DNA from: a virus
DNA length: 64,000 nt
Direction: 5' to 3' (one strand)
IMG/VR virus record: IMGVR_UViG_3300005676_000004
Part shown: piece by piece, positions 4,785 to 19,612 of the stretch
How positions within the stretch are numbered: the first letter of the stretch is position 1
How the letters are laid out: every line of letters begins with the position of its first letter
Notes under the pieces: model-generated
The model's input: the letters and a program-made list of their open reading frames with translations, nothing else
The model's database searches: none
What the model was told of the DNA's origin: nothing
Made by a program: the position numbers and the translations under genes

Positions 4785-4819
4785 ATACAGCGATAATATA
4801 GAGATACATGAGAAAATAG

Positions 4820-5332
4820 TTGAATATTAAACTTAGAGATATATTACAAGAGTTCATGGCTACCGATTTATTTAGAGGTGCCGACTTAGCTCGGAAAAAA
4901 CGAGCTAGGACTGTAAACATTAACTTGATTGATCAAGAGTGGGAAGATGAAGCTCCGGTATTCAAGTTTCGTGTACGTCATCCTAACGAACATGGTGGTA
5001 GTGGGCGGTTTCATGAAGTCAATATGCGTCTTGATTCATTTCCTGAAGTTGTTGACGACGACATTCCAGAAATTGATAAGATCAAGCAATCTCTAGTTGC
5101 TGGTGATGTGCACACTAATTGTTCATGTGAAGATTTCTTGTATAAAGGGTTTGCATACATAGGTACACAACTTGACTACTCTTTAACTGACGAAGATCGT
5201 CCGCCTGTTATTCGTAACCCTAAGCAAGAGGGTACCCTGTGTAAACATGCACTTTCGGTAATAAAGAAGTTGAATTTATTTTACCGAAAGATGGCAAAGC
5301 AACTAGAGCAAAATCCAGTCAATCCAGACTAA
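4820..5332 (+). CDS. SWIM zinc-finger protein with MNIKLRDILQE N-terminus
   Basis: CSCEDF...CKH SWIM signature. Confidence 0.7.
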   Translation: MNIKLRDILQEFMATDLFRGADLARKKRARTVNINLIDQEWEDEAPVFKFRVRHPNEHGGSGRFHEVNMRLDSFPEVVDDDIPEIDKIKQSLVAGDVHTNCSCEDFLYKGFAYIGTQLDYSLTDEDRPPVIRNPKQEGTLCKHALSVIKKLNLFYRKMAKQLEQNPVNPD

Positions 5333-5345
5333 TACACATTTGTAG

Positions 5346-5376
5346 TTGTATTATTCAAATTTTTTTCGTATGTTAT
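5346..5376 (+). promoter_or_regulatory. Bacteroidota-type sigma promoter
   Basis: TTG-N20-TATGTT upstream of the primase. Confidence 0.55.
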
Positions 5377-5392
5377 ACGCGAGATCATTCTC

Positions 5393-6379
5393 ATGACTAT
5401 TGATACGGATCAACTATACGCACACGTGATTAACTACGAACTACTTCATCTTCTTGAGAAAGTTCTTGGTGTCGGAAGAAAGACATCAGGAACTAACTAT
5501 TCATTTTTTTCCCCGTTTATTGTTCACCACAAACCAAAGTTGGAGATTGATTTATCTACCAACTCTACGGGAATGAACTTGTGGCACTGTTGGGTTTCAG
5601 ACACAAAGGGGCGAACTATACGAACTCTCTTTAAGCGTATGGGTCTTCGTAGAGAACACTATGACGAACTTAATAAGGTCTTGAAGGTAAACGTACTCCA
5701 CTCTGAAGAGAAGATCATCGATGAAACGCCGACGTTACATCTACCGAGTGACTACGTCAAGTTATCAAAATACTCTTCCGTGACAGATAAGTACGTGAAA
5801 GTTCAACTACAGAAAGCGATACGGTATCTCCAAGGTAGAGGTTTATCTGCGGTTGATATGATACGACATGGTATAGGATACTGCGTCAACGGTGAATATT
5901 CGGGAAGAGTTATCATACCATCGTTTGATCGTAACCATATGTTAAACTTTTTTATTGCGCGAAGTATTTTTGAAACAGAAACGTTAAAGTACAAGAATCC
6001 TAAGGTATCAAAGGATATTGTTGGGTTTGAATCTACGATAAATTGGAATCGTCCCGTGACGATCGTTGAGGGTGCATTTGATGCAATTGCAGTTCGATAC
6101 AATGCTGTGCCTCTCTTCGGTAAGAGAATGTCTCAGACACTGAAGACGACGATCTTGCAGAGGAAGCCCCCGCATGTTATCGTGGCGTTAGATTCGGATG
6201 CGAAGAAGGACGCAATTGAAATGTGTGACTTCTTGATTGCAAACGGGATTTCAACGAAACTAGTATTTACTCCCGGCAAGGATGTGAGTGAGATAGGTCA
6301 CTCCGCGTTTATTTCACTAACACGTGACCTCTCGGATGTAGATACAATTCAACTTATGAAATACAGACTGACGGCATAA
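5393..6379 (+). CDS. DNA primase (Zn-binding plus TOPRIM)
   Basis: WHCW Zn-binding region; IVEGAFDA and ALDSDA TOPRIM motifs; RVIIPSFD. Confidence 0.88.
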   Translation: MTIDTDQLYAHVINYELLHLLEKVLGVGRKTSGTNYSFFSPFIVHHKPKLEIDLSTNSTGMNLWHCWVSDTKGRTIRTLFKRMGLRREHYDELNKVLKVNVLHSEEKIIDETPTLHLPSDYVKLSKYSSVTDKYVKVQLQKAIRYLQGRGLSAVDMIRHGIGYCVNGEYSGRVIIPSFDRNHMLNFFIARSIFETETLKYKNPKVSKDIVGFESTINWNRPVTIVEGAFDAIAVRYNAVPLFGKRMSQTLKTTILQRKPPHVIVALDSDAKKDAIEMCDFLIANGISTKLVFTPGKDVSEIGHSAFISLTRDLSDVDTIQLMKYRLTA

Positions 6380-6460
6380 CCAAAAAAAATTACTGAATTT
6401 GAGTTTTTAGAATTTTTGGTTTATACTTATAGTAAAGAATCTTAATTGATAGGCGACATT

Positions 6461-6616
6461 ATGACTACTCACGTAAACATAGAACTCAAATCCGTTACTT
6501 GCGAGAAGCAAGTCAGCGGCGCATTTCTATCGTTTGGTGATGCGGCGATTACGAGAAACTGGTATGTATATACAGCACCTCGCAACCCGCATACTGATAC
6601 CGTGAGTACTACGTGA
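6461..6616 (+). CDS. 51-aa leader peptide of a putative attenuator (absent from the ORF track)
   Basis: MTTHVNIELKSVTCEKQVSGAFLSFGDAAITRNWYVYTAPRNPHTDTVSTT; stop lies 32 nt before a terminator whose 5' arm can pair with its last codons. Confidence 0.6.
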   Translation: MTTHVNIELKSVTCEKQVSGAFLSFGDAAITRNWYVYTAPRNPHTDTVSTT

Positions 6617-6648
6617 TGTAGATAAGACACTACCCTAAACGATTACGC

Positions 6649-6678
6649 AGACTCACGGCTACCGATGAGTCTTTTTTT
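6649..6678 (+). terminator. Intrinsic terminator (attenuator)
   Basis: AGACTCA-CGG-cta-CCG-a-TGAGTCT followed by a T run. Confidence 0.8.
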
Positions 6679-6682
6679 GTTT

Positions 6683-6790
6683 TAGGTGATTTCACGTAAT
6701 GGAAGTCAAGTGAATTAGCAGTAAGTTGTAGTCGTTCTGCACTTGCAGGATGACGACGACACAGAGAGACGGGTGCAACGCACTCACCTA
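6683..6790 (+). ncRNA. Uncharacterised structured RNA
   Basis: TAGGTGA/TCACCTA closing stem, TTCAC/GTGAA hairpin, 15-bp hairpin with one mismatch (gttgt-a-gtcgttctgc/gcaggatgac-g-acgac), GTGC-AAC-GCAC hairpin. Confidence 0.5.
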
Positions 6791-6801
6791 CGAAAAACGG
6801 A

Positions 6802-6833
6802 TTTGCTTTTGTCGGAAATAATTTGTAGGTTTG
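6802..6833 (+). promoter_or_regulatory. Bacteroidota consensus promoter of the tRNA array
   Basis: TTTG-N20-TAGGTTTG, full match to -33 TTTG / -7 TAnnTTTG. Confidence 0.8.
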
Positions 6834-6842
6834 TAGTCTCAA

Positions 6843-6856
6843 TGTTCTTTGAAAAT
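6843..6856 (+). promoter_or_regulatory. boxA-like antitermination element
   Basis: TGTTCTTTGAAAAT directly after the promoter, resembling rRNA-operon boxA. Confidence 0.6.
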
Positions 6857-6866
6857 CTAGTCCAAT

Positions 6867-6967
6867 ACCCCAGCCAGCGCAGACGGTTCTGCGTCACTAC
6901 GGTGGCTGTGTCAATGCAATATGATGTTGTATTGTTACAGATGTAAGTTCAAGTCTTACCTGGGGAG
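6867..6967 (+). ncRNA. tRNA-like RNA without an anticodon arm
   Basis: CCCCAG/CTGGGG acceptor and canonical T-arm GTAAG-TTCAAGT-CTTAC; the interior holds three non-canonical hairpins. Confidence 0.65.
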
Positions 6968-6995
6968 CAACGTTGTTGACATGGATAACAACGAT

Positions 6996-7067
6996 GGTAT
7001 CATAGTATAATGGTCAGTACATTAGATTGTCAATCTAGCAGTCGGAGTTCAATTCTCCGTGATACCG
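6996..7067 (+). tRNA. trnD: tRNA-Asp(GTC)
   Basis: Cloverleaf, loop TT-GTC-AA. Confidence 0.9.
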
Positions 7068-7069
7068 CT

Positions 7070-7141
7070 TGCGGGGTGGAGAAAGGGTAATCTCGCGGGT
7101 CTCATAAGCCCGAGTTGGCGGTTCGAGTCCGTCCCCCGCAA
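7070..7141 (+). tRNA. trnM: tRNA-Met(CAT), initiator-like
   Basis: GCGGGGTGGAG...CTCATAA...CCCCGCAA resembles tRNA-fMet. Confidence 0.85.
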
Positions 7142-7152
7142 CTGTCACCGAC

Positions 7153-7232
7153 GCTAGGGTAGCCCGATGTGGAAAGGGGGTGGTCTGTAAAACCACTTAA
7201 CCATCAACTGGGTTCGAGTCCCAGCCCTAGCA
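7153..7232 (+). tRNA. trnY: tRNA-Tyr(GTA)
   Basis: Loop CT-GTA-AA; 11-nt variable region. Confidence 0.88.
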
Positions 7233-7238
7233 CGATAT

Positions 7239-7313
7239 GCCACCTTAGCTCAGTTGGGAGAGCAATCGCCTTGTAAGCGATAGGTCGCCAGTTCAAACCT
7301 GGCAGGTGGCCCA
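7239..7313 (+). tRNA. trnT: tRNA-Thr(TGT)
   Basis: Loop CT-TGT-AA. Confidence 0.92.
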
Positions 7314-7342
7314 CTTTAAGTAATAGTTTACATGGAGTTACA

Positions 7343-8467
7343 GTGAGGGAAAGAACACGAAAGGCGTTTGAAGGAATAGAGAACGCATTATACAGTCTAC
7401 GTAGCGACTTTGATAAGTTTGGCGCGATTGCATCATTCTTAGAACGATGCAATGATTACAATCTACGCGGTGATCTTGACATCGATAAGCCACTCTTCCC
7501 AATTGAACGACTGTCAATCGGAGCATTCTATAAATCTCAGACTCGTCAATATGAGTTTGACGTTGTTAACGAGCACAAAAAATATGCTTCAACGATAATT
7601 GTTCTTGATACCATTAAGGAAATTGATCAATATCCGCAGTATCAAGATGAACAGAAGAAATACTTCACTTCACTCGCTGATCAGTCTAAACCTCTAGATT
7701 ACTCTGGGTTTGATAACGCAATTGATCTAGTGAATAAGATCGGTGAGCACAATGCGCCGATGATGCGATATAATGAGGAGGCAGTGAATCTACTCATTGC
7801 ATTCTTATCTGGATTCGGTCTACCAACAACAGTATATGTTGTGGATCATCACAGTAGACAGAAAATTAAGCCCATGCTTGCGCAGACGGCGGAGTGGGTT
7901 AACGAGCTGAAAAAGTTCAAGACTAATAGCAGCGAGTGGAACGTGGAGTATAGCACCAAGCAGATTCAAGAACTACGTAAGGCCTTCACCGCGAAGTACG
8001 ACGTAATCTTAAAAGAACGTGCTGAAGCTAAAAAGATTGAAGAGCAGAAAGAACGTAAAGAGTCACTAGAACGAGAGAAAATTTTTATACTCGCACAGTG
8101 CCAACTTATGTATGGTCTTGAACCATCTGAAGTTCAAGACATTGATGAATGTGTTGAGTTCTTGCTTAGTAAGAATAACTTACTTCGTCTAGCGTATGCA
8201 ATGGAGCAGACTCGAAACGACTGGAGTGAAGGGTACTACCGTGTAGAGAATGCACTTAGTTCATTTCAATCCCCATTATCAGAACGGGACAGAAAGATTT
8301 TTCTAGAGATTCAATCACTGCTTAACACGGATGATTTACCCGATGGTCGAGTGTTTCGAGACTGTGAACACAACTATAGTGAGCTGTATGCTATAGTTGA
8401 GGAAGAGCATCCCGACATCATGGCTTTGTTTAACAGATGTCAACGTGTTATGTGTCAAACGATTTGA
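7343..8467 (+). CDS. Hypothetical protein inside the tRNA array
   Basis: 374-aa ORF; central coiled-coil; no recognised family. Confidence 0.7.
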   Translation: MRERTRKAFEGIENALYSLRSDFDKFGAIASFLERCNDYNLRGDLDIDKPLFPIERLSIGAFYKSQTRQYEFDVVNEHKKYASTIIVLDTIKEIDQYPQYQDEQKKYFTSLADQSKPLDYSGFDNAIDLVNKIGEHNAPMMRYNEEAVNLLIAFLSGFGLPTTVYVVDHHSRQKIKPMLAQTAEWVNELKKFKTNSSEWNVEYSTKQIQELRKAFTAKYDVILKERAEAKKIEEQKERKESLEREKIFILAQCQLMYGLEPSEVQDIDECVEFLLSKNNLLRLAYAMEQTRNDWSEGYYRVENALSSFQSPLSERDRKIFLEIQSLLNTDDLPDGRVFRDCEHNYSELYAIVEEEHPDIMALFNRCQRVMCQTI

Positions 8468-8481
8468 AGAATGTTGATAAT

Positions 8482-8554
8482 GCAGCCGTAGCCAAATGGT
8501 TAAGGCACCACACTTTCAATGTGGAAATTGCTGGTTCAAATCCAGTCGGCTGTA
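8482..8554 (+). tRNA. trnE: tRNA-Glu(TTC)
   Basis: Loop CT-TTC-AA. Confidence 0.9.
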
Positions 8555-8569
8555 CAAGTATCATGCTAT

Positions 8570-8640
8570 GCGGTTATAGCTTAACGGGAAAGCTGCTGGC
8601 TTTTAACCAGTAGATCGAGGTTCAATTCCTCGTAGCCGCA
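8570..8640 (+). tRNA. trnK: tRNA-Lys(TTT)
   Basis: Loop CT-TTT-AA. Confidence 0.9.
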
Positions 8641-8647
8641 CTCTAAT

Positions 8648-8720
8648 GACTCCGAAGCTCAATTGGTAGAGCAACTGACTCTTAATCAGTGGGGTGTGGG
8701 TTCGAGTCCCACGGGGGTCA
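8648..8720 (+). tRNA. trnK: tRNA-Lys(CTT)
   Basis: Loop CT-CTT-AA. Confidence 0.92.
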
Positions 8721-8809
8721 CTCACCACAAGTATCATACAGTGTAATGATGTAGGTGAATAGATTAGTAGAGGGTGATCTTGTGCTATAGACGCCTAGAT
8801 CACCCGAAT

Positions 8810-8882
8810 GCGGGGTTAGCAAACGTGGTCAATGCTCTGGACTGAAAATCTAGATATGTCGGTTCGATTCCGGCACCTCGCA
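8810..8882 (+). tRNA. trnF: tRNA-Phe(GAA)
   Basis: Loop CT-GAA-AA. Confidence 0.88.
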
Positions 8883-8892
8883 CACATACAAT

Positions 8893-8968
8893 ATACGCCA
8901 ATGTTCCAAGGATATAGGCGAATTGGTCTCCAAAACCGATTGGGTAGGTTCGATTCCTACGGCGTATG
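8893..8968 (+). tRNA. trnW: tRNA-Trp(CCA), atypical D region
   Basis: Loop CT-CCA-AA; 6-bp anticodon stem; canonical T-arm. Confidence 0.8.
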
Positions 8969-8978
8969 CTGCTATAAT

Positions 8979-9053
8979 CCTGTATTAGTTTATTTGGTGA
9001 AAACGCCGTGCTGATAACGCGGAGATGGCTTGGTTCGAATCCAAGATACAGGA
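8979..9053 (+). tRNA. trnI: tRNA-Ile(GAT)
   Basis: Loop CT-GAT-AA. Confidence 0.88.
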
Positions 9054-9069
9054 CTTCGTATATTATGAT

Positions 9070-9143
9070 ACACTCGTAGCTCAGCGGTTCAGAGTGCTGG
9101 TCTTACAAACCGGACGTCGTAGGTTCGAATCCTACCGAGTGTA
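9070..9143 (+). tRNA. trnV: tRNA-Val(TAC)
   Basis: Loop CT-TAC-AA. Confidence 0.92.
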
Positions 9144-9147
9144 CAAT

Positions 9148-9248
9148 GGTCGTATGCTGTGTACGCGTAATTGACGAGTGGAGCGAATGACCTCTATATC
9201 AGAGGTTGCGTCTAAGACATGGGTTCGATTCCCATCTGCATACGACCA
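9148..9248 (+). ncRNA. tRNA-like RNA with extended acceptor stem
   Basis: GGTCGTATGC/GCATACGACC 10-bp stem ending in CCA; T-arm ATGGG-TTCGATT-CCCAT; no canonical anticodon loop. Confidence 0.6.
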
Positions 9249-9253
9249 CATAT

Positions 9254-9327
9254 GCTCCTGTAGCTCAGTGGAGTAGAGCAACGGTCTTCTAAACCGTAGG
9301 TCGTAGGTTCGAATCCTACCAGGAGTA
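9254..9327 (+). tRNA. trnR: tRNA-Arg(TCT)
   Basis: Loop CT-TCT-AA. Confidence 0.92.
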
Positions 9328-9348
9328 CAGTTAGTAATATACTATAAT

Positions 9349-9421
9349 GGGCTGGCATGTTCCAAGGGGGCGAGACGCACTTGCAATGCATCTGTGGTGA
9401 GTTCGATTCTCATCCGGTCCA
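9349..9421 (+). tRNA. trnA: tRNA-Ala(TGC), atypical D region
   Basis: Loop CT-TGC-AA; G3:U70 pair; A73. Confidence 0.85.
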
Positions 9422-9425
9422 CGTA

Positions 9426-9500
9426 TATCGGTTCACACGCAACACTAGCAGTAGATGTTAGTTACCGATACTACTCTCAACGGGAGTGTAAAGGTTGCGT
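9426..9500 (+). ncRNA. Pseudoknotted intergenic RNA
   Basis: TATCGGT(9426)/ACCGATA(9464) crosses ACGCAAC(9437)/GTTGCGT(9494); two nested hairpins. Confidence 0.5.
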
Positions 9501-9504
9501 ATAT

Positions 9505-9578
9505 TCGGAAGTAGCTCAGCGGTTTAGAGCGTTCGACTGTTAATCGAAATGCCGTAGGTTCAAATCCTACCTTCCGAG
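9505..9578 (+). tRNA. trnN: tRNA-Asn(GTT)
   Basis: Loop CT-GTT-AA. Confidence 0.92.
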
Positions 9579-9590
9579 CATCATAACTAT

Positions 9591-9663
9591 GCGCTTAGGC
9601 CGGACTGGTAGTCCGAACGGGTCTTATACGCCTGTCAAACTGGTTCGATTCCAGGTAAGCGTA
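9591..9663 (+). tRNA. trnI: tRNA-Ile(TAT)
   Basis: Loop CT-TAT-AC; 7-bp acceptor; T-arm with one mismatch. Confidence 0.75.
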
Positions 9664-9668
9664 CACAT

Positions 9669-9741
9669 GCCAACGTAGCCGAATGGAAGAGGCAACGGTC
9701 TTAGAAACCGTAATTTGTGGGTTCGACTCCCACCGTTGGTA
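9669..9741 (+). tRNA. trnL: tRNA-Leu(TAG), short variable loop
   Basis: Loop CT-TAG-AA. Confidence 0.88.
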
Positions 9742-9776
9742 CATCTAAAAATTTTTTACTGTAAGAAAGTTTTGTA

Positions 9777-11090
9777 ATGCAACAAACTTCGTATCAACTC
9801 TACGGTTCTCTCCATCTACCTCGTAAAAATCGTGCACAACTTGATTCACTACCAGTTGGTACGTATGTCGTTAAACATACTGACATGGGGTTTGCACTTG
9901 AAAAAGTTGAAAATTTCAAACTTCCTAAAAAAATCTACGGCGGAGTTCAGTCCGACGCTAAGCGTATCTTGAAGACGTTTGCGGACAGGACAAACTCTAC
10001 TGGCGTTTGGTTGGATGGCGCGAAGGGGTCTGGTAAGACTATGCTAGCAAAGCTCATATCATCCATGGCGTTGAAGGATGGTATATCCACAATAATAGTT
10101 TCAGAACCATATCACGGCTCGGACTTCAATGTCCTTATGCAGTCAATTGATGTGCCATGTATAGTTTTCTTTGATGAGTTTGAAAAGGTATATCACGAAA
10201 CTAATTTGCAAGAAGAGTTGCTAACTCTGTTAGATGGTGTATATCCGACGCGCAAGTTATTTCTTCTTACGACGAACGGTGGTAAGGATAGTTTAGTGGA
10301 TATGCTCATCTCTCGACCAGGGAGAATTTTTTATTCGCTGACCTTTGAAGGTTTATCTGACAAATTCATTAAAGAATATTGTAAGGATAAACTGAAAGAC
10401 CAAAGTAAGATTAATGATATTATTGTAGCGGCTTCGATAATAGGCGACATGTCATTTGATGTATTGCAAGCAATAGTCGAAGAAGTTAATAGATATGGTG
10501 AGAGTGTAGCTGACGTATGTAGCTGGTTAAATATCGTACCTTCTTCTAGCAGACTTAATTCATATTTTAAATGTATTTCATTTGTTCTTGATGGAAAGAG
10601 ATTAACAAATGGCTGGGACGTGAACGTGTATAGAGATTACACCTCAGACGTCGCTTTTAATGGATATTTTGAAATTATTAACAATCATGATACAAAACAG
10701 CGCAAGCATAATAAAGAAAACGATGTATCGGATATTGTAGTTAAGTCAGTTCAATTGCCTAAGCAAAAGAAAATTTTAGTTGATGAATTTCGTTCGCAGG
10801 ACATAGATGATGATTATGAAGAAGAAATTGAGTTCGCTGCTACGAAAAACGCTCTTAACAGAGAGAAAATGAAAAACTCAAATATCGTTACATTGTCATC
10901 TAGTCAGTTTGAATTAGTGCACATGACAGTTACGCCGTCCGTTGTCTACACTTTCCGGTCGGATGATATTGATGGCCATACTGTTGAACTAAAAATTCGT
11001 CAAGTCGCGAGCACACAATCTACATACTGGATTGATCATCTTAAGAAACGAACAAAAATTATTTCAGAATTTAATACTTCCGATACATGA
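9777..11090 (+). CDS. AAA+ ATPase
   Basis: Walker A GAKGSGKT; Walker B FFDEFEK; SRPGR arginine finger. Confidence 0.88.
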   Translation: MQQTSYQLYGSLHLPRKNRAQLDSLPVGTYVVKHTDMGFALEKVENFKLPKKIYGGVQSDAKRILKTFADRTNSTGVWLDGAKGSGKTMLAKLISSMALKDGISTIIVSEPYHGSDFNVLMQSIDVPCIVFFDEFEKVYHETNLQEELLTLLDGVYPTRKLFLLTTNGGKDSLVDMLISRPGRIFYSLTFEGLSDKFIKEYCKDKLKDQSKINDIIVAASIIGDMSFDVLQAIVEEVNRYGESVADVCSWLNIVPSSSRLNSYFKCISFVLDGKRLTNGWDVNVYRDYTSDVAFNGYFEIINNHDTKQRKHNKENDVSDIVVKSVQLPKQKKILVDEFRSQDIDDDYEEEIEFAATKNALNREKMKNSNIVTLSSSQFELVHMTVTPSVVYTFRSDDIDGHTVELKIRQVASTQSTYWIDHLKKRTKIISEFNTSDT

Positions 11091-11099
11091 TATAAGTAT

Positions 11100-11174
11100 G
11101 CCCCCGTAGCTCAATGGATTTAGAGCGCATGATTTCGACTCATGAGGTTGCAGGTTCAAGTCCTGTCGGGGGTT
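11100..11174 (+). tRNA. trnR: tRNA-Arg(TCG)
   Basis: Loop TT-TCG-AC. Confidence 0.88.
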
Positions 11175-11180
11175 CATCAT

Positions 11181-11253
11181 AGAGATGTAGCGTAGAGGCT
11201 CACGCACTCGTTTTGGGAACGAGACCACGCAGGTTCGAATCCTGTCATCTCTA
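11181..11253 (+). tRNA. trnP: tRNA-Pro(TGG)
   Basis: Loop TT-TGG-GA. Confidence 0.88.
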
Positions 11254-11259
11254 CTATAT

Positions 11260-11333
11260 ACCGTCATAGCTCAACAGAATAGAGCCTTCGACTACGAATC
11301 GAGGAGGTGAAGGTTTGAATCCTTCTGGCGGTG
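11260..11333 (+). tRNA. trnR: tRNA-Arg(ACG)
   Basis: Loop CT-ACG-AA. Confidence 0.88.
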
Positions 11334-11340
11334 CGAATCT

Positions 11341-11411
11341 TGGGGAATGGCCTAATGGCAGGGCATCGGACTTTGAATCCGAGAGTCCCGGTTCGAGTCC
11401 GGGTTCCCCAG
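11341..11411 (+). tRNA. trnQ: tRNA-Gln(TTG)
   Basis: Loop CT-TTG-AA. Confidence 0.92.
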
Positions 11412-11427
11412 CGAGATACCTAGAAAT

Positions 11428-11504
11428 GGTAGGTGTAGCATAACTGGTTAATGCCCCTCGCCTGTGAAGCGAGTGAATGACGAGTTCGAATCTCGCCACC
11501 TACC
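11428..11504 (+). tRNA. trnH: tRNA-His(GTG)
   Basis: Loop CT-GTG-AA; G-1:C73. Confidence 0.9.
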
Positions 11505-11533
11505 CAAATTTTTTGGCCGATGGCCAGAAAGTG

Positions 11534-11565
11534 TTTGGAAATGTCAAATCTTTTCCGTAAGTTAG
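11534..11565 (+). promoter_or_regulatory. Bacteroidota-type promoter for the Y RNA/Ro60 unit
   Basis: TTTG-N20-TAAGTTAG. Confidence 0.65.
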
Positions 11566-11578
11566 TGTAATGAAGTTT

Positions 11579-11650
11579 TTGTCGTGGTGAAGAGTAGAGT
11601 TACTTCAGACTGGAATCCCGAAACCCACTCTGCTCAATTGTTCCCGACAA
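11579..11650 (+). ncRNA. Y RNA-like gene 1
   Basis: TTGTCG/CGACAA terminal stem; GGTGAA opposite TTGTTC; GAGTAGAGT/ACTCTGCTC stem; GTTACTTC motif; T run after; upstream of the TROVE gene. Confidence 0.75.
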
Positions 11651-11658
11651 GTTTTTTT

Positions 11659-11729
11659 GATAGTTGTAGTGAAGAAGTGGGTTACTTCTACATTCCGAAC
11701 CAGTCCCACTTTGATTGTTCTCAACTATC
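11659..11729 (+). ncRNA. Y RNA-like gene 2
   Basis: GATAGTTG/CAACTATC terminal stem; AGTGAA opposite TTGTTC; AAGTGGG/CCCACTT stem; GTTACTTC motif; T run after. Confidence 0.75.
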
Positions 11730-11756
11730 GTTTTTTAATCAACTCTAGGAGTTATC

Positions 11757-13085
11757 ATGCGTAAAAATGTAAAGACTAACAGCTATCAGAAGCGACAGTC
11801 TACCGAGGTTGAACTGCGCCGCTCGGTGATGGCATGTCTCCTGTGGGAAGATTCTTTCTATGAATCTGGAGAAGATCATGCTTCCCGAGTTGAAGCGTTG
11901 GCGTTAAATGTCTCGGAGCAATTTCTCTCTGATCTAGCGATTGAAGCTCGTGACGTGATGAAACTTCGTCACATGCCACTGTTCTTAACAAAAATTCTAG
12001 CAAGTCGTCGTTCTAAGTTAACATCCGATACGCTGTATCACGTGATTCAACGACCAGACGAACTTGCTGAGTTCTTAGCGTTGTATTGGGAAAACGGACG
12101 TTGCCCTCTCTCAGCTCAAGTTAAGAAGGGCTTAGCGAAAGCATTCACAAAGTTTAATGAGTATTCTCTTGCCAAGTATAATCGAGATGCTGACATTAAG
12201 CTGCGAGATGTCATGTTCTTAGTTCATCCGAAGCCACTTAACTCTGAACAAGAATTGTTGTGGAAGCGTTTGGTGGATAATGAACTTGCAACTCCAGATA
12301 CATGGGAAGTTGAACTTTCAAAATCAACTAATAAGACGGCATCTTGGACACGGTTGCTGCAAGAAAATAAGCTAGGTGCTTTGGCGTTGCTTCGTAATTT
12401 GCGAAACATGTTAGATGCTAACGTTGACATTCAATTGATTCGTTCTGCAATCACTCGAATGAAACCGAATAAAGTTTTACCGTTTCGATTTATTTCGGCG
12501 GCAAAGTATGCACCTCGCATTGAATCTGACATTGAAGCGGCTATGCTACGGGAACTTTCAGATGTTGAGAAGCTACCAGGTAAGACCTTACTTGTGGTTG
12601 ATGCATCGGGTTCAATGTTTGGTACACCGTTGTCGGCAAAGAGTGACCTAGAACGATTTGATGCAGCTTGCGCTCTTAGCATCCTTCTGAAAGAAATTTG
12701 CGGAGATGTAGAGACGTTGCTGTTTTCGCATACTACCGAGATTGTCCCATCAGCCCGACGTGGGTTTGCATTGCGAGATGCTATGCTCAGAACTGCTCAA
12801 CGTGGTGGAACTGACACCCCGTCTGCGATTCGCAAGGCTAATGAGTTGGGATATGACAGGATTATTGTCATAACCGATGAGCAAGACAACTCTGGACATT
12901 CTCGTCTACCAGCTCCACTGCCAGACACACAAGCGTACATTATAAATGTAGCTGGTTATTCTCGTGGAATCAATTATGGTTCCGAGTGGAATACCATTAG
13001 TGGTTGGAGTGAAGGTGTAGTGACGTATATTCAAAACTACGAAACAATGTTAGTAGAATCTGACACGATAGATGTAGTTGACTGA
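11757..13085 (+). CDS. rsr: Ro60/TROVE-domain RNA-binding protein with vWA domain
   Basis: AIEARDVMKLRHMP, ATPDTWE, ALLRNLRNM, VLPFRF; vWA MIDAS VDASGSM ... ITDEQ. Confidence 0.93.
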   Translation: MRKNVKTNSYQKRQSTEVELRRSVMACLLWEDSFYESGEDHASRVEALALNVSEQFLSDLAIEARDVMKLRHMPLFLTKILASRRSKLTSDTLYHVIQRPDELAEFLALYWENGRCPLSAQVKKGLAKAFTKFNEYSLAKYNRDADIKLRDVMFLVHPKPLNSEQELLWKRLVDNELATPDTWEVELSKSTNKTASWTRLLQENKLGALALLRNLRNMLDANVDIQLIRSAITRMKPNKVLPFRFISAAKYAPRIESDIEAAMLRELSDVEKLPGKTLLVVDASGSMFGTPLSAKSDLERFDAACALSILLKEICGDVETLLFSHTTEIVPSARRGFALRDAMLRTAQRGGTDTPSAIRKANELGYDRIIVITDEQDNSGHSRLPAPLPDTQAYIINVAGYSRGINYGSEWNTISGWSEGVVTYIQNYETMLVESDTIDVVD

Positions 13086-13125
13086 TTAACGGGGTGCTTA
13101 CGTATTTGTTTGCACCCCATTCTAC

Positions 13126-13196
13126 GCCGCTATGGTCTAATGGTAGGACAGTGCTCTCATAAGGCACACGACCGTGTTCGATTCACGGTAGCGGTA
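13126..13196 (+). tRNA. trnM: tRNA-Met(CAT), elongator-type
   Basis: Loop CT-CAT-AA. Confidence 0.82.
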
Positions 13197-13204
13197 CAAA
13201 ACTT

Positions 13205-13278
13205 GCCTTCCTAGTTCAAGTGGCAGAACCATCGTCTCGTAAGCGATAGATACCAGTTCAAGTCTGGTGGTAGGCCCA
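13205..13278 (+). tRNA. trnT: tRNA-Thr(CGT)
   Basis: Loop CT-CGT-AA. Confidence 0.85.
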
Positions 13279-13291
13279 TTCTAAAATTTTT

Positions 13292-13363
13292 GCGGGAGTG
13301 GTGTAACGGTTAACATACTTGACTTCCAATCAATTGATACTAGTTCGATTCTAGTCTTCCGCA
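13292..13363 (+). tRNA. trnG: tRNA-Gly(TCC)
   Basis: Loop CT-TCC-AA. Confidence 0.9.
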
Positions 13364-13399
13364 CTTCCTTCCATTTCATCACCGCAATGCATAGCGAAT

Positions 13400-14242
13400 A
13401 TGAAGTACTTTCTCATTGACCAAGATGATCTACTACATCTTGAGCATGTACGTCTAGCTAAGAGAGCTGTTGACTTCCAAATTTGGAGGGGAAACACGGA
13501 TGTACGTCTCGTTTCGTCGTTGGATGACATACGTTCTGACGCAACCTTGATAGTTCCAGTGGGGTCTGTTGAGTTTGTCAGAAGCATATTCGCAATGTAT
13601 AGTCAAGTTTTTTTTAATGAGAACTGGCCTTCTGACATTAGAGGCGATCACTTTGTACAGGCTCGGTCCTGGGAATATTCTTCATCTCCATACAGGTCAT
13701 TGTATACATTTGGCTCTTGTAAACTATCTGAGATTGATGCGGCGGTTAAAGACTTTCCTATCTTCATCAAGCCTAAATTTGATAGCACTCTTTTTCATGG
13801 CGAATTATTGAGAGACAACACCGATCTCCAGAGTCTATACGATCTTGTAGTCGGTGTAAACGGTAGACAGATGGACGGTAATACTGAGGTTTACTACAGC
13901 GTTCCGATCAACTTCATTGCTGAGTTCAGAGCTATAATTCACAACGGTAAGTTGTTAGCATTATCTGAATACAGTGTTGATGAGACTTTACCCGATCCGT
14001 TGAAGTGTCTGTATGATTCAAAGTCAGTTTGTTACAACAAGATGTTCTCTGGGCCATACTCCATCTTAAACACAATTGATAGCTCATTCGCTCGTATTGT
14101 CGACGTAGGTATGCCTGAACAAGGAGTTCCGGCGGTAGTCGAATGCGCTAATAACATATTGACTGCTGCGACATATACGTCATTCATTGACGTCGTAGCA
14201 TACTACAAAGCACTTTGCAGTTGTGGGATTAAACTAATATGA
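13400..14242 (+). CDS. ATP-grasp domain protein (DUF4343/R2K-like)
   Basis: VPVGSVEF, PIFIKP, FIAEFRAII, IVDVG, VVECAN. Confidence 0.7.
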   Translation: MKYFLIDQDDLLHLEHVRLAKRAVDFQIWRGNTDVRLVSSLDDIRSDATLIVPVGSVEFVRSIFAMYSQVFFNENWPSDIRGDHFVQARSWEYSSSPYRSLYTFGSCKLSEIDAAVKDFPIFIKPKFDSTLFHGELLRDNTDLQSLYDLVVGVNGRQMDGNTEVYYSVPINFIAEFRAIIHNGKLLALSEYSVDETLPDPLKCLYDSKSVCYNKMFSGPYSILNTIDSSFARIVDVGMPEQGVPAVVECANNILTAATYTSFIDVVAYYKALCSCGIKLI

Positions 14243-15255
14243 AATTCTTAACAGTTCTAACGACATTAGTAGCATCTTCACTGATAGCTTCTACTCAAAC
14301 TCTACGTACTGATTCTTTGAAGTACGAGGTGTATATGGACGTCTTCGTATCATCTACGTTGAACGGAGATAAGACTGATATTCCATACACGACTCAGACG
14401 GTTGTAAATTCACGACCAGTTATCAACCTCTTCATGGCTAAGAGTTCATACTCATACTCTAACTATGAAATAAATGTAGCACTTCAAGCTGGAGAGTATC
14501 CAGTAGTTAACTATGTTAATCAAGATCGTGACGTGCGGTTTATCCAGGGGTTGAATGCAGCAGTGTATTCAAACTCTAGAAAAATTTCCTTACAAGTTGG
14601 TATCTTGCCATCACATGTTGGCTACGCTGGGACGGTATCGCGTGACAACATCAATGTTACGAGTTCATTGATTTCTGACTTCACTCCCTATTATCAGGCA
14701 GGAGCAAAGGTTCAATACTCTCATAACGGTTTAACCGCCGCGATGCTTGTGCTTCAAGGGTGGCAAAATATTTTTGAAACCAATTTAGCGAAGTCGTTTG
14801 GGAGTGCTGTTAAGTACGCAACTGATGATTTCGCAATTGCGTGGAATACCATCATTGGCGCAGACGATGTAGATAATGAGTTCTATCGGTATTACAATAA
14901 CATGTATGCCGCGTATACTTCTGGTAATGTTACAGTCGTAGGGTTGCTAGATGTGTGTCCAGCACAAGGTAAACTTCCTACTCTTTACGCAGGGGTGTAT
15001 GCTCAGTATCGACTCAACGGTGTTAACATCGGCCTTAGATATGAAAATGTAAATGATCGCGATAACGTCATCTTTTACACACTCAATGGAGAGTCGTTCA
15101 TTGCACAGAACTATTCACTTAATGTTGACTATCGTTTGACTGATAAATACAACATTAGGTTAGAATATAGACATACGTCATCTCCTAACGCAATATTTCA
15201 ATCTAATGCTGCATTACTGCGGTATCTAACAGTTTCAACTAATTTTACGTTTTAA
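14239..15255 (+). CDS. Outer-membrane beta-barrel (porin-like) protein
   Basis: N-terminal signal peptide; alternating aromatic beta-strands; C-terminal Phe (NFTF). Confidence 0.75.
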   Translation: MKFLTVLTTLVASSLIASTQTLRTDSLKYEVYMDVFVSSTLNGDKTDIPYTTQTVVNSRPVINLFMAKSSYSYSNYEINVALQAGEYPVVNYVNQDRDVRFIQGLNAAVYSNSRKISLQVGILPSHVGYAGTVSRDNINVTSSLISDFTPYYQAGAKVQYSHNGLTAAMLVLQGWQNIFETNLAKSFGSAVKYATDDFAIAWNTIIGADDVDNEFYRYYNNMYAAYTSGNVTVVGLLDVCPAQGKLPTLYAGVYAQYRLNGVNIGLRYENVNDRDNVIFYTLNGESFIAQNYSLNVDYRLTDKYNIRLEYRHTSSPNAIFQSNAALLRYLTVSTNFTF

Positions 15256-16005
15256 GTGAGCATGAACACGATCTTTAAGAAAGTACTCGGGACATTCGTT
15301 GAGATAGAAGATGCACAGGATGCTGCTCCTGCTCCTACGTCATCTAACTCTCCACTAATGAGTGGAATTGCAAACATTACAGCCAACGGTAAGTATAGTC
15401 CACAGTCAACTCCGAAACCATCTACCGCACCTAGAACATTTACATCACACAGCTCAGAGACGCTAGAGCAGACAGTTCCTACATCTTCAAGCGACGAGGC
15501 AAAACTTAGTCAATTTGAAGAACACTTTCATCAGTTGATGCGAGAAAGAAATTTACCTGGACCTGACTTCCTAGAGTTACTTCAAGTGATGGATGTACTG
15601 CCGATAGATAACTTTGAAGTACGTCTTAAGACAGCGTTTGATACTTTAAAGATTCAAGGCGTTACGAAAGAAATCTTACAGTCTAGTGCTAGGGTATATC
15701 TTGATGCACTAGCAGCCGATAACAAGTCTTTCTCCGATAGTATCAAGTCACAGTCTGAGACTGTAGTGCCATCAAAACAAATTGAGATTGCTAATAACGA
15801 GCATAGAATTTCGTCAATTGATGAGCAGATACTACTACTTCAGACTGAACGAGATTCATTGATCGACCTTAATGCTCAGTTAGCGACTGAAATCCAAGAG
15901 TCTACGGCAACCATCGCAAAGGCTGCTGAGCTGTACAATGCAGCATATACGAAATTCCATCAGCATATCCAGAATATGCTAATTAATATCAATACACTTT
16001 TGTAA
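15256..16005 (+). CDS. Hypothetical coiled-coil protein
   Basis: S/T/P-rich linker, LPGPDFLE motif, C-terminal coiled coil. Confidence 0.7.
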   Translation: MSMNTIFKKVLGTFVEIEDAQDAAPAPTSSNSPLMSGIANITANGKYSPQSTPKPSTAPRTFTSHSSETLEQTVPTSSSDEAKLSQFEEHFHQLMRERNLPGPDFLELLQVMDVLPIDNFEVRLKTAFDTLKIQGVTKEILQSSARVYLDALAADNKSFSDSIKSQSETVVPSKQIEIANNEHRISSIDEQILLLQTERDSLIDLNAQLATEIQESTATIAKAAELYNAAYTKFHQHIQNMLININTLL

Positions 16006-16026
16006 TTCAACGTAAGGGTTTTCTCC

Positions 16027-17022
16027 ATGACTAACAGCAACGTCGCAACGAGTATTGCCGACTTCGGTAGCAACTCGCAAGAAAAATTGAGAAGCTATTG
16101 GAATCGTCCAGGTGGTAAATTTGGTACCATCGTTGGGCTTGCACTACTTGGGCTTGCGGGTTACGCACTCGTACCAGTTCTTACTACCATCGTGTGGAAT
16201 ACCATAAACTTTGCAATCGCCCTCGGCGTAGGTGGTGCGCTAGCATATATGGTATCGCATCGTAAGCTACGAATGAGCTTGTTCTACTTCTATGAAATTC
16301 TCATGAAACGCCTCGTCGGGGTCGTTATTGAGATGGACCCCTTTATTATTGCGGAAAGCAATATTAAAGACATGGAAGACCAACGTAATTATCTGAGTGA
16401 ACAGATAATAGTTGTTAATAAGGAATGTCATCGTATTAGCAACAAGATCACTGAAAAGGAAGCTGAGATTGAAAGAGGGTATCTTAGAATCCAAGCGGCT
16501 GGTAAGAATGACGATAAGAAATCTCTTGCCACCATCTCTAGAAGTACTGAACGTGCGAAAGAGTATATCAAAAATCTAGCACCATTGCGCGAGAAGCTAA
16601 AGCAAATTTCAGAATATCTCACTGCTGTCTATGAAAACTCTGAGTACGTCATTGAAGACGCTAAGAATCATCTAGCCAATCAAAAAGATTTGTACTACAC
16701 TGTTACCGCTGGTAGTAATGCTATGAAGTCTGCTATGGGAATTTTCAAGGGCGATCCTGAGAAGAAACTTCTCGTTGAACAGAGTATGGACTATCTTCGT
16801 GATGACATTGCTGCTAAACTTGGTGCAATGCAACAAGCGATGGATATTACATCTACTGCAATGCGTTCAATTGATCTTGACAACGCAACGTATGAGATAG
16901 CTGGCCTTGAAACTCTCAAGCAACTAGCGGCGACTAAACAAGAAACCTTAGATACTGGTGAATTTGTTCCAGGCGTTCTTAAGGCGGATAAGTATCAGAA
17001 TCTCATCTCTGCTGCACGGTAA
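16027..17022 (+). CDS. Membrane-anchored coiled-coil protein (PspA/IM30-like architecture)
   Basis: Two N-terminal hydrophobic helices followed by a long coiled coil. Confidence 0.65.
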   Translation: MTNSNVATSIADFGSNSQEKLRSYWNRPGGKFGTIVGLALLGLAGYALVPVLTTIVWNTINFAIALGVGGALAYMVSHRKLRMSLFYFYEILMKRLVGVVIEMDPFIIAESNIKDMEDQRNYLSEQIIVVNKECHRISNKITEKEAEIERGYLRIQAAGKNDDKKSLATISRSTERAKEYIKNLAPLREKLKQISEYLTAVYENSEYVIEDAKNHLANQKDLYYTVTAGSNAMKSAMGIFKGDPEKKLLVEQSMDYLRDDIAAKLGAMQQAMDITSTAMRSIDLDNATYEIAGLETLKQLAATKQETLDTGEFVPGVLKADKYQNLISAAR

Positions 17023-17058
17023 TTTTTACACTGTTTAACTTTAAAAAAGGTAAGTAAC

Positions 17059-18828: not shown

Positions 18829-18829
18829 C

Positions 18830-19612
18830 GTGAACTTAACTAAGTATATCAGCCCGTTTTCAGTTGTTAACAAAGCTGAGCGATGGACTATACTTGTGGT
18901 TGAAAGTTTAATAGGTCTTGGGGTCTGGCAGCTCTTCGGGAATAGTCTTATCCCAGGACCTATTGATATTATGCTCCGCGTGTTTAGTATATTGACCACC
19001 GCCTCATTTTGGCATAACTTCATGAATAGTTTGACTCTAACGTCGGTTGGCATGGGTATCTCAATTGGAATATCGTTACTCTTTGCATACGCATCGGTAG
19101 TTCCGGTATTTACACCAATTACCAACCTAATCATGAGGTTGCGATACCTCACGTTAACGGGTCTAATTTTTGTGTTTACGCTGTTGACTGCAAACGGTTC
19201 TCAACTAAAGTTGAGTCTTCTCTTGTTTGGTATCATCCCGTTCTTTGTCACATCTCTTATGAGCGTATTGCATTCTATCAATCCGCAAGAATACGAGCTT
19301 GCAAAGACATTGAAGATGAATCCATTTCAAACCCTGTTAGAGGTGATAATCATAGGTCGCCTAGATCAAGCTCTTGACGTCATGCGACAAAATTTTGCAA
19401 TCTCGTGGATGATGATAACGATGGTTGAAGGATTATCAATGTCTGAAGGTGGGCTTGGTACAATGATTATCAAGTCTAACAAGTACATTGATCTCCACAC
19501 TGTGTTTGCGTTGCTAGTTATAATATTCACCGTCGGGATTTTGTTTGACTTCATTTTGAAGAAACTGCGACAGTGGATTTTTCCATACACCGCCATAGCT
19601 AGTCGCCACTAA
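18830..19612 (+). CDS. ABC transporter permease
   Basis: Six hydrophobic segments; EAA-like YELAKTLKMN; GLG motif. Confidence 0.85.
   Translation: MNLTKYISPFSVVNKAERWTILVVESLIGLGVWQLFGNSLIPGPIDIMLRVFSILTTASFWHNFMNSLTLTSVGMGISIGISLLFAYASVVPVFTPITNLIMRLRYLTLTGLIFVFTLLTANGSQLKLSLLLFGIIPFFVTSLMSVLHSINPQEYELAKTLKMNPFQTLLEVIIIGRLDQALDVMRQNFAISWMMITMVEGLSMSEGGLGTMIIKSNKYIDLHTVFALLVIIFTVGILFDFILKKLRQWIFPYTAIASRH

What the first reader, a model, noticed from the sequence alone, without database searches (positions are those of the whole stretch)
6398..6678. Ribosome-coupled attenuator at the head of the tRNA/Ro60 region: a candidate translation-stress sensor
Seen: a 51-codon ORF (6461-6616) is followed by a strong terminator (6649-6678). 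CCGTGAGT (6600-6607, within the last five codons) is perfectly complementary to ACTCACGG (6651-6658, the 5' arm of the terminator), giving mutually exclusive terminator and antiterminator folds. The peptide contains all 20 amino acids and nine Thr. Known: this is the geometry of classical leader-peptide attenuation, in which a ribosome reaching the stop masks the antiterminator strand while one stalled upstream frees it. Inference: the phage senses ribosome stalling (for example from host tRNA cleavage or starvation) and switches on read-through into a structured RNA and the tRNA array. A phage feedback circuit controlling tRNA replenishment would be a notable system. Caveat: an independent promoter at 6802 also feeds the array.
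Basis: partly seen in the sequence, partly recalled or inferred. Interest (0 to 1): 0.82.

Follow-up and report, generated by a model that had tools for sequence, protein, structure and literature searches.

The report
Switchable terminator before phage tRNA island
At the head of a jumbo phage's tRNA and Ro60 gene island, a 51-codon reading frame lies in a folded RNA whose terminator has two competing partner helices; this could let ribosome traffic decide read-through, but nothing shows that it does.

Summary
The ORF (6461-6616), the terminator (hairpin 6650-6671 plus U7) and the 8-nt complementarity are exactly as described.

The pairing is larger than reported. Strand R2 (6600-6619, covering the stop codon) has two partners:
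- R3 (6641-6658), which includes the terminator's 5' arm: 16 bp, -21.3 kcal/mol.
- R1 (6456-6473), which covers the start codon and codons 2-5: 17 bp, -19.4 kcal/mol.

This gives a trp-like 1:2 / 2:3 / 3:4 set. It is the only such case among 176 terminator-like hairpins in comparably AT-rich phage DNA.

The terminator is the default (probability 0.99). It also wins with a ribosome in mid-ORF or at the stop. The antiterminator wins only when the first ~8 codons are occupied.

The peptide is an orphan, and its only variant differs by three changes, all non-synonymous. The ORF RNA is more structured than 97% of coding windows.

No informative relatives exist: only two haplotypes, no homologue and no paralogue. 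Covariation therefore cannot be tested, and translation and read-through are untested.

My odds are about 0.4 for a translation-gated attenuator and about 0.35 for an ordinary small gene or sRNA with its own terminator. Earlier notes from this scan describe similar candidates ahead of tRNA arrays in other phages; those notes are unverified.

The parts
6399..6427 (+). Promoter-like site, TTGAGT-17 nt-TATACT, in the AT-rich 81-nt gap after the primase stop codon. It would start an RNA near 6435.
   Evidence: 9 of 12 matches. This is weak evidence: such hits occur at chance frequency in this genome. The site is identical in both haplotypes.
6451..6455 (+). Weak Shine-Dalgarno-like AGGCG, 6-10 nt before the ATG.
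   Evidence: Sequence. Phage genes show a purine-rich stretch at -12 to -7, and 35% carry a 4-mer SD against 10% background. In the full-length minimum-energy fold this region and the AUG are paired.
6461..6616 (+). 51-codon ORF (leader candidate).
   Evidence: - Features: all 20 amino acids and 38 distinct codons.
- Homologues: only one, a 94% identical variant.
- Substitutions: three between haplotypes, all non-synonymous.
- Codon-usage score: uninformative.
- Folding: z -2.59, lower than 97% of coding windows.
6456..6473 (+). R1, the anti-antiterminator strand. It covers the start codon and codons 2-5.
   Evidence: Pairs with 6601-6619 (8+1+8 bp, -19.4 kcal/mol). Pair probability is 0.86-0.99 in the full transcript. 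It is a 75% direct repeat of R3 (family D1).
6475..6595 (+). Two internal hairpin domains (6475-6535 and 6536-6595) inside the ORF. With the R1:R2 closing helix they form a three-way junction.
   Evidence: (-36.4 kcal/mol, z -2.89, 1 of 200 shuffles).
6600..6619 (+). R2, the shared strand. It covers codons 47-51 and the stop codon, and pairs with either R1 or R3.
   Evidence: inverted repeats I6 and I7.
6641..6658 (+). R3, the antiterminator partner of R2. Its 3' half (6650-6658) is the 5' arm of the terminator.
   Evidence: -21.3 kcal/mol. It is the minimum-energy fold when R1 is masked, and for nascent RNA ending at 6660-6665.
6650..6678 (+). Intrinsic terminator: hairpin 6650-6671 plus U7 at 6672-6678. 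R4 is 6662-6671.
   Evidence: -12.1 kcal/mol, z -3.1. It has the longest uninterrupted T run among the 31 terminator-like hairpins of the genome.

Best explanation
The stretch 6435-6678 is a structured leader RNA carrying a conditional intrinsic terminator of the trp type, placed where the replication genes give way to the RNA-gene island (tRNA-like RNAs, 33 tRNAs, Ro60).

Shown in sequence and by folding:
- Strand R2 (6600-6619) can pair with R1 (6456-6473, over the start codon) or with R3 (6641-6658).
- R3 shares nine bases with the terminator hairpin (6650-6671, then U7).
- Free RNA folds as R1:R2 plus terminator.

Inferred mechanism:
1. With no translation, R1:R2 forms and transcription stops.
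2. With smooth, closely coupled translation, the lead ribosome reaches the stop codon, covers R2, and transcription stops.
3. If ribosomes sit on the first ~8 codons when R2 and R3 emerge, R1 is blocked. This could come from slow early decoding or from a queue behind a stall further down the 51-codon frame.
4. R2 then pairs with R3, the terminator cannot form, and RNA polymerase runs on into the RNA island.

On this reading the peptide itself has no function. The terminated ~245-nt RNA, closed by R1:R2 and ending in the terminator hairpin, would accumulate as a stable by-product.
For: - Exact terminator plus a 16-bp antiterminator.
- A second partner, R1, over the start codon.
- The three-helix set is the only one among 176 terminator-like hairpins with local GC of 0.50 or less. 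The antiterminator alone ranks 2 of 470 and 2 of 31 in this genome.
- Masking R1 makes the antiterminator the minimum-energy fold. Masking mid-ORF or the stop region keeps the terminator.
- Nascent RNA ending at 6660-6665 prefers R2:R3.
- The ORF start and stop codons both lie inside the switching strands.
- An open frame occurs in only 5.5% of shuffles of the same sequence.
- The peptide seems unconstrained but the RNA constrained: 0 synonymous and 3 non-synonymous changes, against 20:3 in the adjoining part of the primase gene. All three changes fall on unpaired bases. The ORF RNA is more structured than 97% of coding windows.
- All 20 amino acids are present (2% of gene windows, 3.8% of own-composition shuffles), ahead of an island with tRNAs for at least 19 amino acids.
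- The scan found no promoter-like site between 6679 and 6975. The only hits (6976, 6982) would start transcription inside tRNA-Asp.
- A 53-codon leader with terminator, antiterminator and anti-antiterminator that senses general translation inhibition is experimentally established for bmrB (PMC4191407).
Against: - There is no experimental or transcript evidence.
- There is no comparative evidence: two haplotypes only, no substitution in any helix, and no homologue or paralogue.
- R1:R2 on its own is matched by about 10% of shuffles.
- All rarity figures are post hoc.
- At equilibrium the terminator wins in every state except ribosome occupancy of codons 1-8, and the margins are small (2-5 kcal/mol).
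- There is no run of regulatory codons, and Asp/Met/Tyr/Thr of the first tRNA block are not enriched.
- R1 and R2 lie 127 nt apart, unlike classical leaders.
- The SD is weak and the AUG is paired in the stable fold.
- The codon score is ambiguous and GC by codon position is not gene-like.
- A 53-codon antisense frame is also open over the same stretch.
- The promoter assignment is at chance level.
- 70 tRNA clusters in other Ro60-carrying phage contigs show no general leader signal.
Confidence: 0.4

Rival explanations
1. It is an ordinary self-contained unit: a small orphan phage gene, or a ~245-nt structured small RNA whose open frame is accidental. It ends in a constitutive terminator that simply separates the replication genes from the RNA island. 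The alternative pairings are chance or serve only RNA stability.
For: - Small orphan ORFs followed by terminators are common in phages.
- The terminator conformer holds 99% of the ensemble.
- R1:R2 is not statistically exceptional.
- A few natural hairpins show equally strong upstream pairing.
- The structure z-scores, the lack of homologues, the non-gene-like GC by codon position and the open antisense frame fit a non-coding RNA in an island full of RNA genes.
Against: - The joint three-helix geometry is unique in 176 comparable hairpins.
- The switching strands coincide with the start and stop codons of a frame that is open in only 5.5% of shuffles.
- The scan found no promoter-like site between the terminator and 6975 that could drive the island independently.
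- If it is a protein gene, the 0:3 synonymous to non-synonymous pattern differs from the adjoining primase gene (Fisher P about 0.008, from the counts).
Confidence: 0.35
2. It is a conditional terminator flipped by something other than the ribosome. A protein, small RNA, tRNA or ligand binds R1 or the three-way junction and releases R2 to form the antiterminator. The ORF is incidental.
For: - The same three-helix geometry.
- Strong internal structure resembling an aptamer-like junction.
- No regulatory codons.
- Weak SD and a sequestered AUG.
Against: - No Rfam riboswitch, T-box or other family matches, even at E up to 10.
- No specific complementarity of R1, R2 or R3 to the phage tRNAs or neighbouring RNAs beyond background.
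- No relatives are available to show a conserved ligand pocket.
- The start and stop codons sit precisely in R1 and R2, which this reading leaves unexplained.
Confidence: 0.1
3. It is translational self-control only. R1:R2 hides the ribosome-binding site, so the small protein is made only during transcription. The terminator is unregulated.
For: The SD and AUG are paired with probability 0.9-0.99 in the finished RNA.
Against: - It does not explain the 16-bp R2:R3 alternative.
- The peptide shows no sign of purifying selection and has no homologues.
Confidence: 0.1

Closest known systems
Leader-peptide transcription attenuators of enterobacterial amino-acid operons (trpL, hisL, thrL, leuL, pheL, ilv leaders); textbook knowledge
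   Same: - A leader ORF followed by an intrinsic terminator.
- Three overlapping helices (1:2 anti-antiterminator, 2:3 antiterminator, 3:4 terminator).
- A ribosome at the leader stop codon covers region 2.
- No translation gives termination ('superattenuation').
   Different: - The ORF has 51 codons rather than 14-32.
- Region 1 lies at the start codon, not at the end of the leader.
- 127 structured nucleotides separate regions 1 and 2.
- There is no run of control codons.
- The downstream genes are RNAs (tRNA-like RNAs, tRNAs, later Ro60), not biosynthetic enzymes.
- The setting is a phage genome.
bmrB leader of Bacillus subtilis bmrCD (PMC4191407)
   Same: - Long leader ORF (53 codons there, 51 here).
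- Predicted terminator, antiterminator and anti-antiterminator.
- It senses general slowing of translation rather than one amino acid.
   Different: - In bmrB all three structures lie inside the coding region (nt 60-162). Here the terminator lies 33 nt after the stop codon.
- bmrB control is shown by experiment. This case rests on sequence only.
- The regulated genes are of a different kind.
Attenuator-derived small RNA rnTrpL of Sinorhizobium meliloti (PMC6614838; seen only as title and abstract)
   Same: A terminated leader transcript that carries a small ORF and persists as a structured small RNA.
   Different: rnTrpL's action in trans is shown experimentally. Here a stable terminated RNA is only predicted from the closing helix plus the terminator hairpin.
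Small stable RNAs encoded in phage tRNA clusters (T4 species 1 and 2 RNAs; from my own knowledge, not checked here)
   Same: A structured non-tRNA RNA at the edge of a phage tRNA gene cluster.
   Different: Those RNAs are processed from the tRNA precursor. They are not known to carry an ORF or a terminator switch.

Membership tests
Leader-peptide (ribosome-mediated) transcription attenuator | Short translated ORF with start codon and ribosome-binding site in the leader | tested here: inconclusive
   An intact 51-codon ORF is present in both haplotypes, with a weak AGG-type SD. The codon score is ambiguous. Translation cannot be tested with these tools.
Leader-peptide (ribosome-mediated) transcription attenuator | Intrinsic terminator between the leader and the regulated genes | tested here: met
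   Hairpin 6650-6671 plus U7, -12.1 kcal/mol. The first tRNA starts at 6996 on the same strand.
Leader-peptide (ribosome-mediated) transcription attenuator | Antiterminator helix that shares a strand with the terminator | tested here: met
   6600-6617 pairs with 6641-6658, 16 bp, -21.3 kcal/mol. It is rare among natural hairpins.
Leader-peptide (ribosome-mediated) transcription attenuator | Anti-antiterminator overlapping the ORF, so that ribosome position selects the fold | tested here: met
   R1 (6456-6473) pairs with R2. A ribosome-footprint scan gives the antiterminator only for codons 1-8. This rests on thermodynamic prediction only.
Leader-peptide (ribosome-mediated) transcription attenuator | Control codons cognate to the regulated product, placed where a stalled ribosome masks region 1 | tested here: not met
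   There is no codon run. Asp/Met/Tyr/Thr of the first tRNA block are not enriched (P 0.1-0.16). Four of the nine Thr codons lie where a stalled ribosome would mask region 2 instead. The only hint is that all 20 amino acids are present.
Leader-peptide (ribosome-mediated) transcription attenuator | Alternative helices conserved, with covariation, in relatives | tested here: inconclusive
   Only two haplotypes exist, about 99% identical over 6370-7000, with no change in R1-R4. No homologue was found by nhmmer or by covariance model in 965 kb of related loci.
Leader-peptide (ribosome-mediated) transcription attenuator | Read-through responds to translation of the leader | not testable with these tools
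   This needs reporters, Term-seq or in-vitro coupled transcription-translation.
Known riboswitch, T-box or other Rfam cis-regulatory families | Match to a curated covariance model | tested here: not met
   No family reached its gathering score in 5000-24000 except tRNAs. In 6380-7000 nothing scored better than E 0.34, and the hits were irrelevant families.
Independent small RNA gene | Own promoter, own terminator, stable structure and no coding constraint | tested here: inconclusive
   The terminator and structure are met. The promoter-like site is at chance level. The open frame is mildly unexpected by chance (5.5%).

The most novel reading that the evidence does not exclude
A trp-like three-helix attenuator in a 253-kb phage reads ribosome occupancy at the 5' end of a 51-codon test frame that contains all 20 amino acids. 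It opens transcription into an island of 33 tRNA genes, tRNA-like RNAs and Ro60 when translation slows. This would be a feedback loop by which the phage replenishes tRNAs, and possibly RNA-repair functions, under tRNA depletion or translational stress.
Probability: 0.3. Interest if true: 0.8.

Novelty: new variant of a known kind. Interest (0 to 1): 0.5.

Why it matters
Large phages carry tRNA arrays, thought to offset loss of host tRNAs and anticodon nucleases, but how they time or dose tRNA expression is unknown. My literature searches found no paper describing leader-peptide attenuation in front of phage tRNA genes.

If this terminator is gated by ribosome occupancy, it would extend a classical bacterial control logic to tRNA supply in a virus. 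It would also give a compact, testable sensor of translational stress.

If it is not gated, the element is only a structured small transcript with a terminator, and is ordinary.

Tried and rejected
1. Covariation in relatives. The primase next door has one 97% relative, and the next relatives are at 55% or less with different synteny. The closest named phages, Microcystis phage Mel-JY01 and Flavobacterium phages, lack the unit. Nine contigs carrying the ORF collapse to two haplotypes.
2. Homologues of the peptide. Only the 94% variant exists. Hits to giant repeat proteins (E 1e-20) are repeat-inflated: the best single segment scores 28.5 bits, far below significance for that library. I rejected them. 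There is no Pfam match.
3. Homologues of the RNA. nhmmer, blastn and a covariance model found nothing in 61 Ro60-carrying viral loci and five other loci. There is no paralogue in the phage's own genome.
4. Rfam. No match.
6. Host inference from the phage porin gene. The only hit was a 28% match to a deltaproteobacterial MAG, which is uninformative.
7. Phage-specific promoter motif. None was found, and sigma-70-like hits are at chance level.
8. The 'leader spells the downstream tRNAs' idea, taken from earlier scan notes. It is not met for the first tRNA block. Cognate codons are present for 26 of 31 anticodons, which is not exceptional (P 0.06-0.11). No general signal appears over 70 tRNA clusters of other phage contigs. 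Terminators before tRNAs there have no stronger antiterminator pairing than other terminators.
9. Pairing of R1, R2 or R3 with phage tRNAs or neighbouring RNAs. Nothing specific.
10. Read-through extension of the primase gene, which is in the same frame. Two in-frame stops lie between it and the ORF, so this is rejected.
11. tRNA layout in the nearest public relatives. Mel-JY01 has one tRNA, and the 484-kb uncultured phage has dispersed tRNAs. Neither has a comparable array head.

Full report
**Context**

The window is the minus strand of a 253,401-bp IMG/VR phage record rated complete. From about position 100 to 23,500 nearly all genes lie on the + strand.
- A DNA primase gene ends at 6379.
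- 33 tRNA genes lie between 6996 and 22893.
- A TROVE/Ro60 gene lies at 11757-13085.

The finding sits in the gap between the primase gene and the first tRNA.

**Observation**

- ORF: 6461-6616, 51 codons, all 20 amino acids, nine Thr.
- Terminator: hairpin 6650-6671 with U7 at 6672-6678, -12.1 kcal/mol, z -3.1.
- Complementarity: CCGTGAGT (6600-6607) is the exact complement of ACTCACGG (6651-6658).

An 8-nt match within about 200 nt upstream occurs in 0.4% of dinucleotide shuffles and in 1.7% of 470 natural hairpins in this genome.

The pairing is larger than reported. 6600-6617 pairs with 6641-6658 as 8+2+6 bp, -21.3 kcal/mol.
- Only one other of the 470 hairpins does as well.
- It ranks second among 31 terminator-like hairpins of the genome. 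The one above it lies in a G-run/C-run repeat region and is not comparable.

The same strand, R2 (6600-6619, covering codons 47-51 and the stop codon), also pairs with R1 (6456-6473). R1 covers the start codon and codons 2-5. The pairing is 8+1+8 bp, -19.4 kcal/mol. R1 and R3 (6641-6658) form a 16-nt, 75% direct repeat.

The RNA therefore has a full 1:2 / 2:3 / 3:4 set.
- R1:R2 alone is matched by about 10% of shuffles.
- Among 244 terminator-like hairpins (this genome plus 62 other phage loci), six have both alternative pairings at least as strong, counting this one. The other five all lie in 59-68% GC DNA.
- Among the 176 with local GC of 0.50 or less, this is the only one.

These figures are post hoc, because the site was chosen for its complementarity. 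I treat them as moderate evidence, not strong evidence.

**Folding logic**

In the full transcript (6435-6682):
- R1:R2 plus the terminator dominates, with pair probabilities of 0.86-0.99.
- The antiterminator has probability 0.01.

Nascent RNA ending at 6660-6665 prefers R2:R3. Once R4 is out, the terminator state wins again.

I masked a 29-nt ribosome footprint codon by codon:

| Ribosome P-site | Favoured fold | Margin |
|---|---|---|
| Codons 1-7 | Antiterminator | 2.2-3.6 kcal/mol |
| Codon 9 | Terminator, marginally | 0.7 kcal/mol |
| Codons 11-41 | Terminator | 2.9-5.2 kcal/mol |
| Codon 43 to stop | Terminator (R2 is masked) | not applicable |
| No ribosome | Terminator | 3.1 kcal/mol |

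R1 recaptures R2 unless R1 itself is occupied.

A workable model is that read-through scales with occupancy of the first ~8 codons. Occupancy would rise with slow early decoding or with a queue of ribosomes behind a downstream stall; five ribosomes fill the frame. This step is inference.

**Is the ORF a gene?**

- The peptide has one homologue, a 94% identical variant, in 5.8 billion clusters and in 1.84 billion representatives.
- The apparent hits to giant repeat proteins sum many copies of one weak segment (best 28.5 bits), and I reject them.
- The codon-usage score lies at the 13th percentile of real-gene windows. It is reached by 8-20% of random or shadow open frames, so it decides nothing.
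- GC by codon position is unlike the phage's genes.
- The two haplotypes differ at three positions in the ORF. All three are non-synonymous and all fall on unpaired bases of the predicted fold. The adjoining part of the primase gene has 20 synonymous and 3 non-synonymous changed codons.
- The ORF RNA folds with z -2.59, lower than 97% of coding windows in this phage. Its interior forms two hairpin domains with z -2.89.
- The frame is open in only 5.5% of shuffles of its own sequence.

Together these point to a function at the RNA level, or in the act of translation, rather than in the peptide. That fits either a leader or a non-coding RNA.

**Peptide composition**

- All 20 amino acids occur in 2% of 51-residue gene windows and in 3.8% of own-composition shuffles.
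- 38 distinct codons occur in 0.3% of gene windows, 1% of ORFs of 51-70 codons, and 8.6% of own-composition shuffles.
- Five of the nine Thr codons lie in R1 and R2, so the Thr excess follows from the helices.
- The amino acids of the four tRNAs directly behind the terminator (Asp, Met, Tyr, Thr) are not enriched (P 0.1-0.16).
- Cognate codons exist for 26 of the 31 distinct phage anticodons (P 0.06-0.11).

**Relatives**

- The primase gene has one 97% relative. The next relatives are at 55% or less and lack the unit.
- Nine contigs from one group of samples give two haplotypes, with no change in R1-R4.
- nhmmer, blastn and a covariance model found no homologue in 965 kb of loci from Ro60-carrying and primase-related phages. 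There is no paralogue in the phage's own genome.
- Rfam has no match.

**Transcription units**

A promoter-like TTGAGT-17-TATACT lies at 6399-6427. The scan found no promoter-like site between the terminator and 6975, and the two hits at 6976 and 6982 would start transcription inside tRNA-Asp. This is the layout expected of an attenuator.

However, sigma-70-like hits in this genome are no more frequent than in shuffles, and the host is unknown. I give this little weight.

**Earlier notes of this scan**

A word search returned follow-up notes on other phage genomes that describe leader-peptide attenuators in front of tRNA arrays, with leaders spelling the downstream tRNAs. These are unverified AI notes, and I did not count them as support. 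I tested the idea here.
- It is not met for the first tRNA block.
- It shows no general signal over 70 tRNA clusters in the Ro60-carrying contigs I fetched.
- One locus, L043 380-510, does look like a compact example. It has a promoter-like site, a 14-codon frame with Pro-Gln-Pro-Gln-Pro, a copy of the terminator's 3' arm right after the stop codon, a terminator, and then tRNA-Pro, tRNA-Pro and tRNA-Gln. In the unbiased test it ranks only at P 0.13.

**Comparison with known systems**

The geometry works like the trp-type leader attenuators. In its length and lack of control codons it resembles bmrB of Bacillus subtilis: a 53-codon leader with terminator, antiterminator and anti-antiterminator that responds to general translation inhibition (PMC4191407).

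It differs in three ways:
- region 1 sits on the start codon;
- 127 structured nucleotides separate regions 1 and 2;
- the downstream genes are RNA genes in a phage.

One defining feature of the classical family, control codons, was tested and not met. I therefore say that it may work like an attenuator, not that it is an established member.

**Verdict**

| Reading | My odds |
|---|---|
| Translation-gated conditional terminator | about 0.4 |
| Ordinary small gene or small RNA with a constitutive terminator | about 0.35 |
| Switch flipped by another factor | about 0.1 |
| Translational self-control only | about 0.1 |

If real, it is a new variant of a known kind with an unusual output. Reporter and 3'-end mapping experiments would settle the question quickly.

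Noticed in passing
window 6679-6995: The stretch between the terminator and tRNA-Asp folds far better than shuffles (-100.9 kcal/mol, z -3.38, 0 of 100). It contains a tRNA-like element at about 6867-6967, with a CCCCAG/CTGGGG stem and a perfect T-arm (GTAAG-TTCAAGT-CTTAC). Neither ARAGORN nor Rfam calls it.
   Followed up: partly
window 6487-6496 and 6796-6805: A perfect 10-nt inverted repeat (CAAATCCGTT / AACGGATTTG) links the interior of the leader ORF to the region just after the first structured RNA. It could pair only in a read-through transcript. About 0.2 such repeats are expected by chance in this 621-nt stretch.
   Followed up: no
L043 364-510 (IMGVR_UViG_3300038499_000012): A compact attenuator-like unit in an unrelated Ro60-carrying phage contig:
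- TTGAAA-17-TATACT;
- a 14-codon frame, MNTRRNPQPQPGVI;
- CGAGGGCC directly after its stop codon, copying the terminator's 3' arm;
- the terminator GGCCCTCG-AAAG-AGGGCC followed by a T-run;
- then tRNA-Pro, tRNA-Pro and tRNA-Gln.
It is suggestive, but ranks only at P 0.13 in an unbiased test.
   Followed up: partly
window 4804-11379 versus L004: Divergence between the two haplotypes is mosaic. There are about 14-19 differences per 100 nt over 4804-5603, dropping abruptly to 1-4 per 100 nt inside the primase gene from about 5604. Further hot patches lie at 7204-7403, 7804-8003 and 9204-9403. This suggests recombination breakpoints.
   Followed up: no
window 7343-8467: The 374-aa ORF between the first two tRNA blocks has no Pfam match and evolves fast (18 synonymous against 25 non-synonymous changed codons between haplotypes). 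Its only viral-contig relative covers residues 222-354 at 45% identity.
   Followed up: no
window 11757-13085 and loci L011-L071: The phage Ro60 (TROVE plus vWA-like) protein has 61 relatives at 40-57% identity in IMG/VR viral contigs. Half of these loci carry tRNA genes within 8 kb, up to 32 in L039.
   Followed up: partly
genome outside the window, about 119,800-120,050 in window-oriented coordinates: An intergenic region rich in G-runs and C-runs (GGGGGG/CCCCCC blocks) forms very stable nested hairpins before a T-run (-66 kcal/mol over 165 nt). It is the only terminator-like site with stronger upstream alternative pairing than the one studied.
   Followed up: partly
window 6469-6630, minus strand: A 53-codon frame is open antisense to the leader ORF. 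This indicates that the balanced base composition of the stretch (46% GC against 41% for the window as a whole) depletes stop codons in several frames.
   Followed up: no
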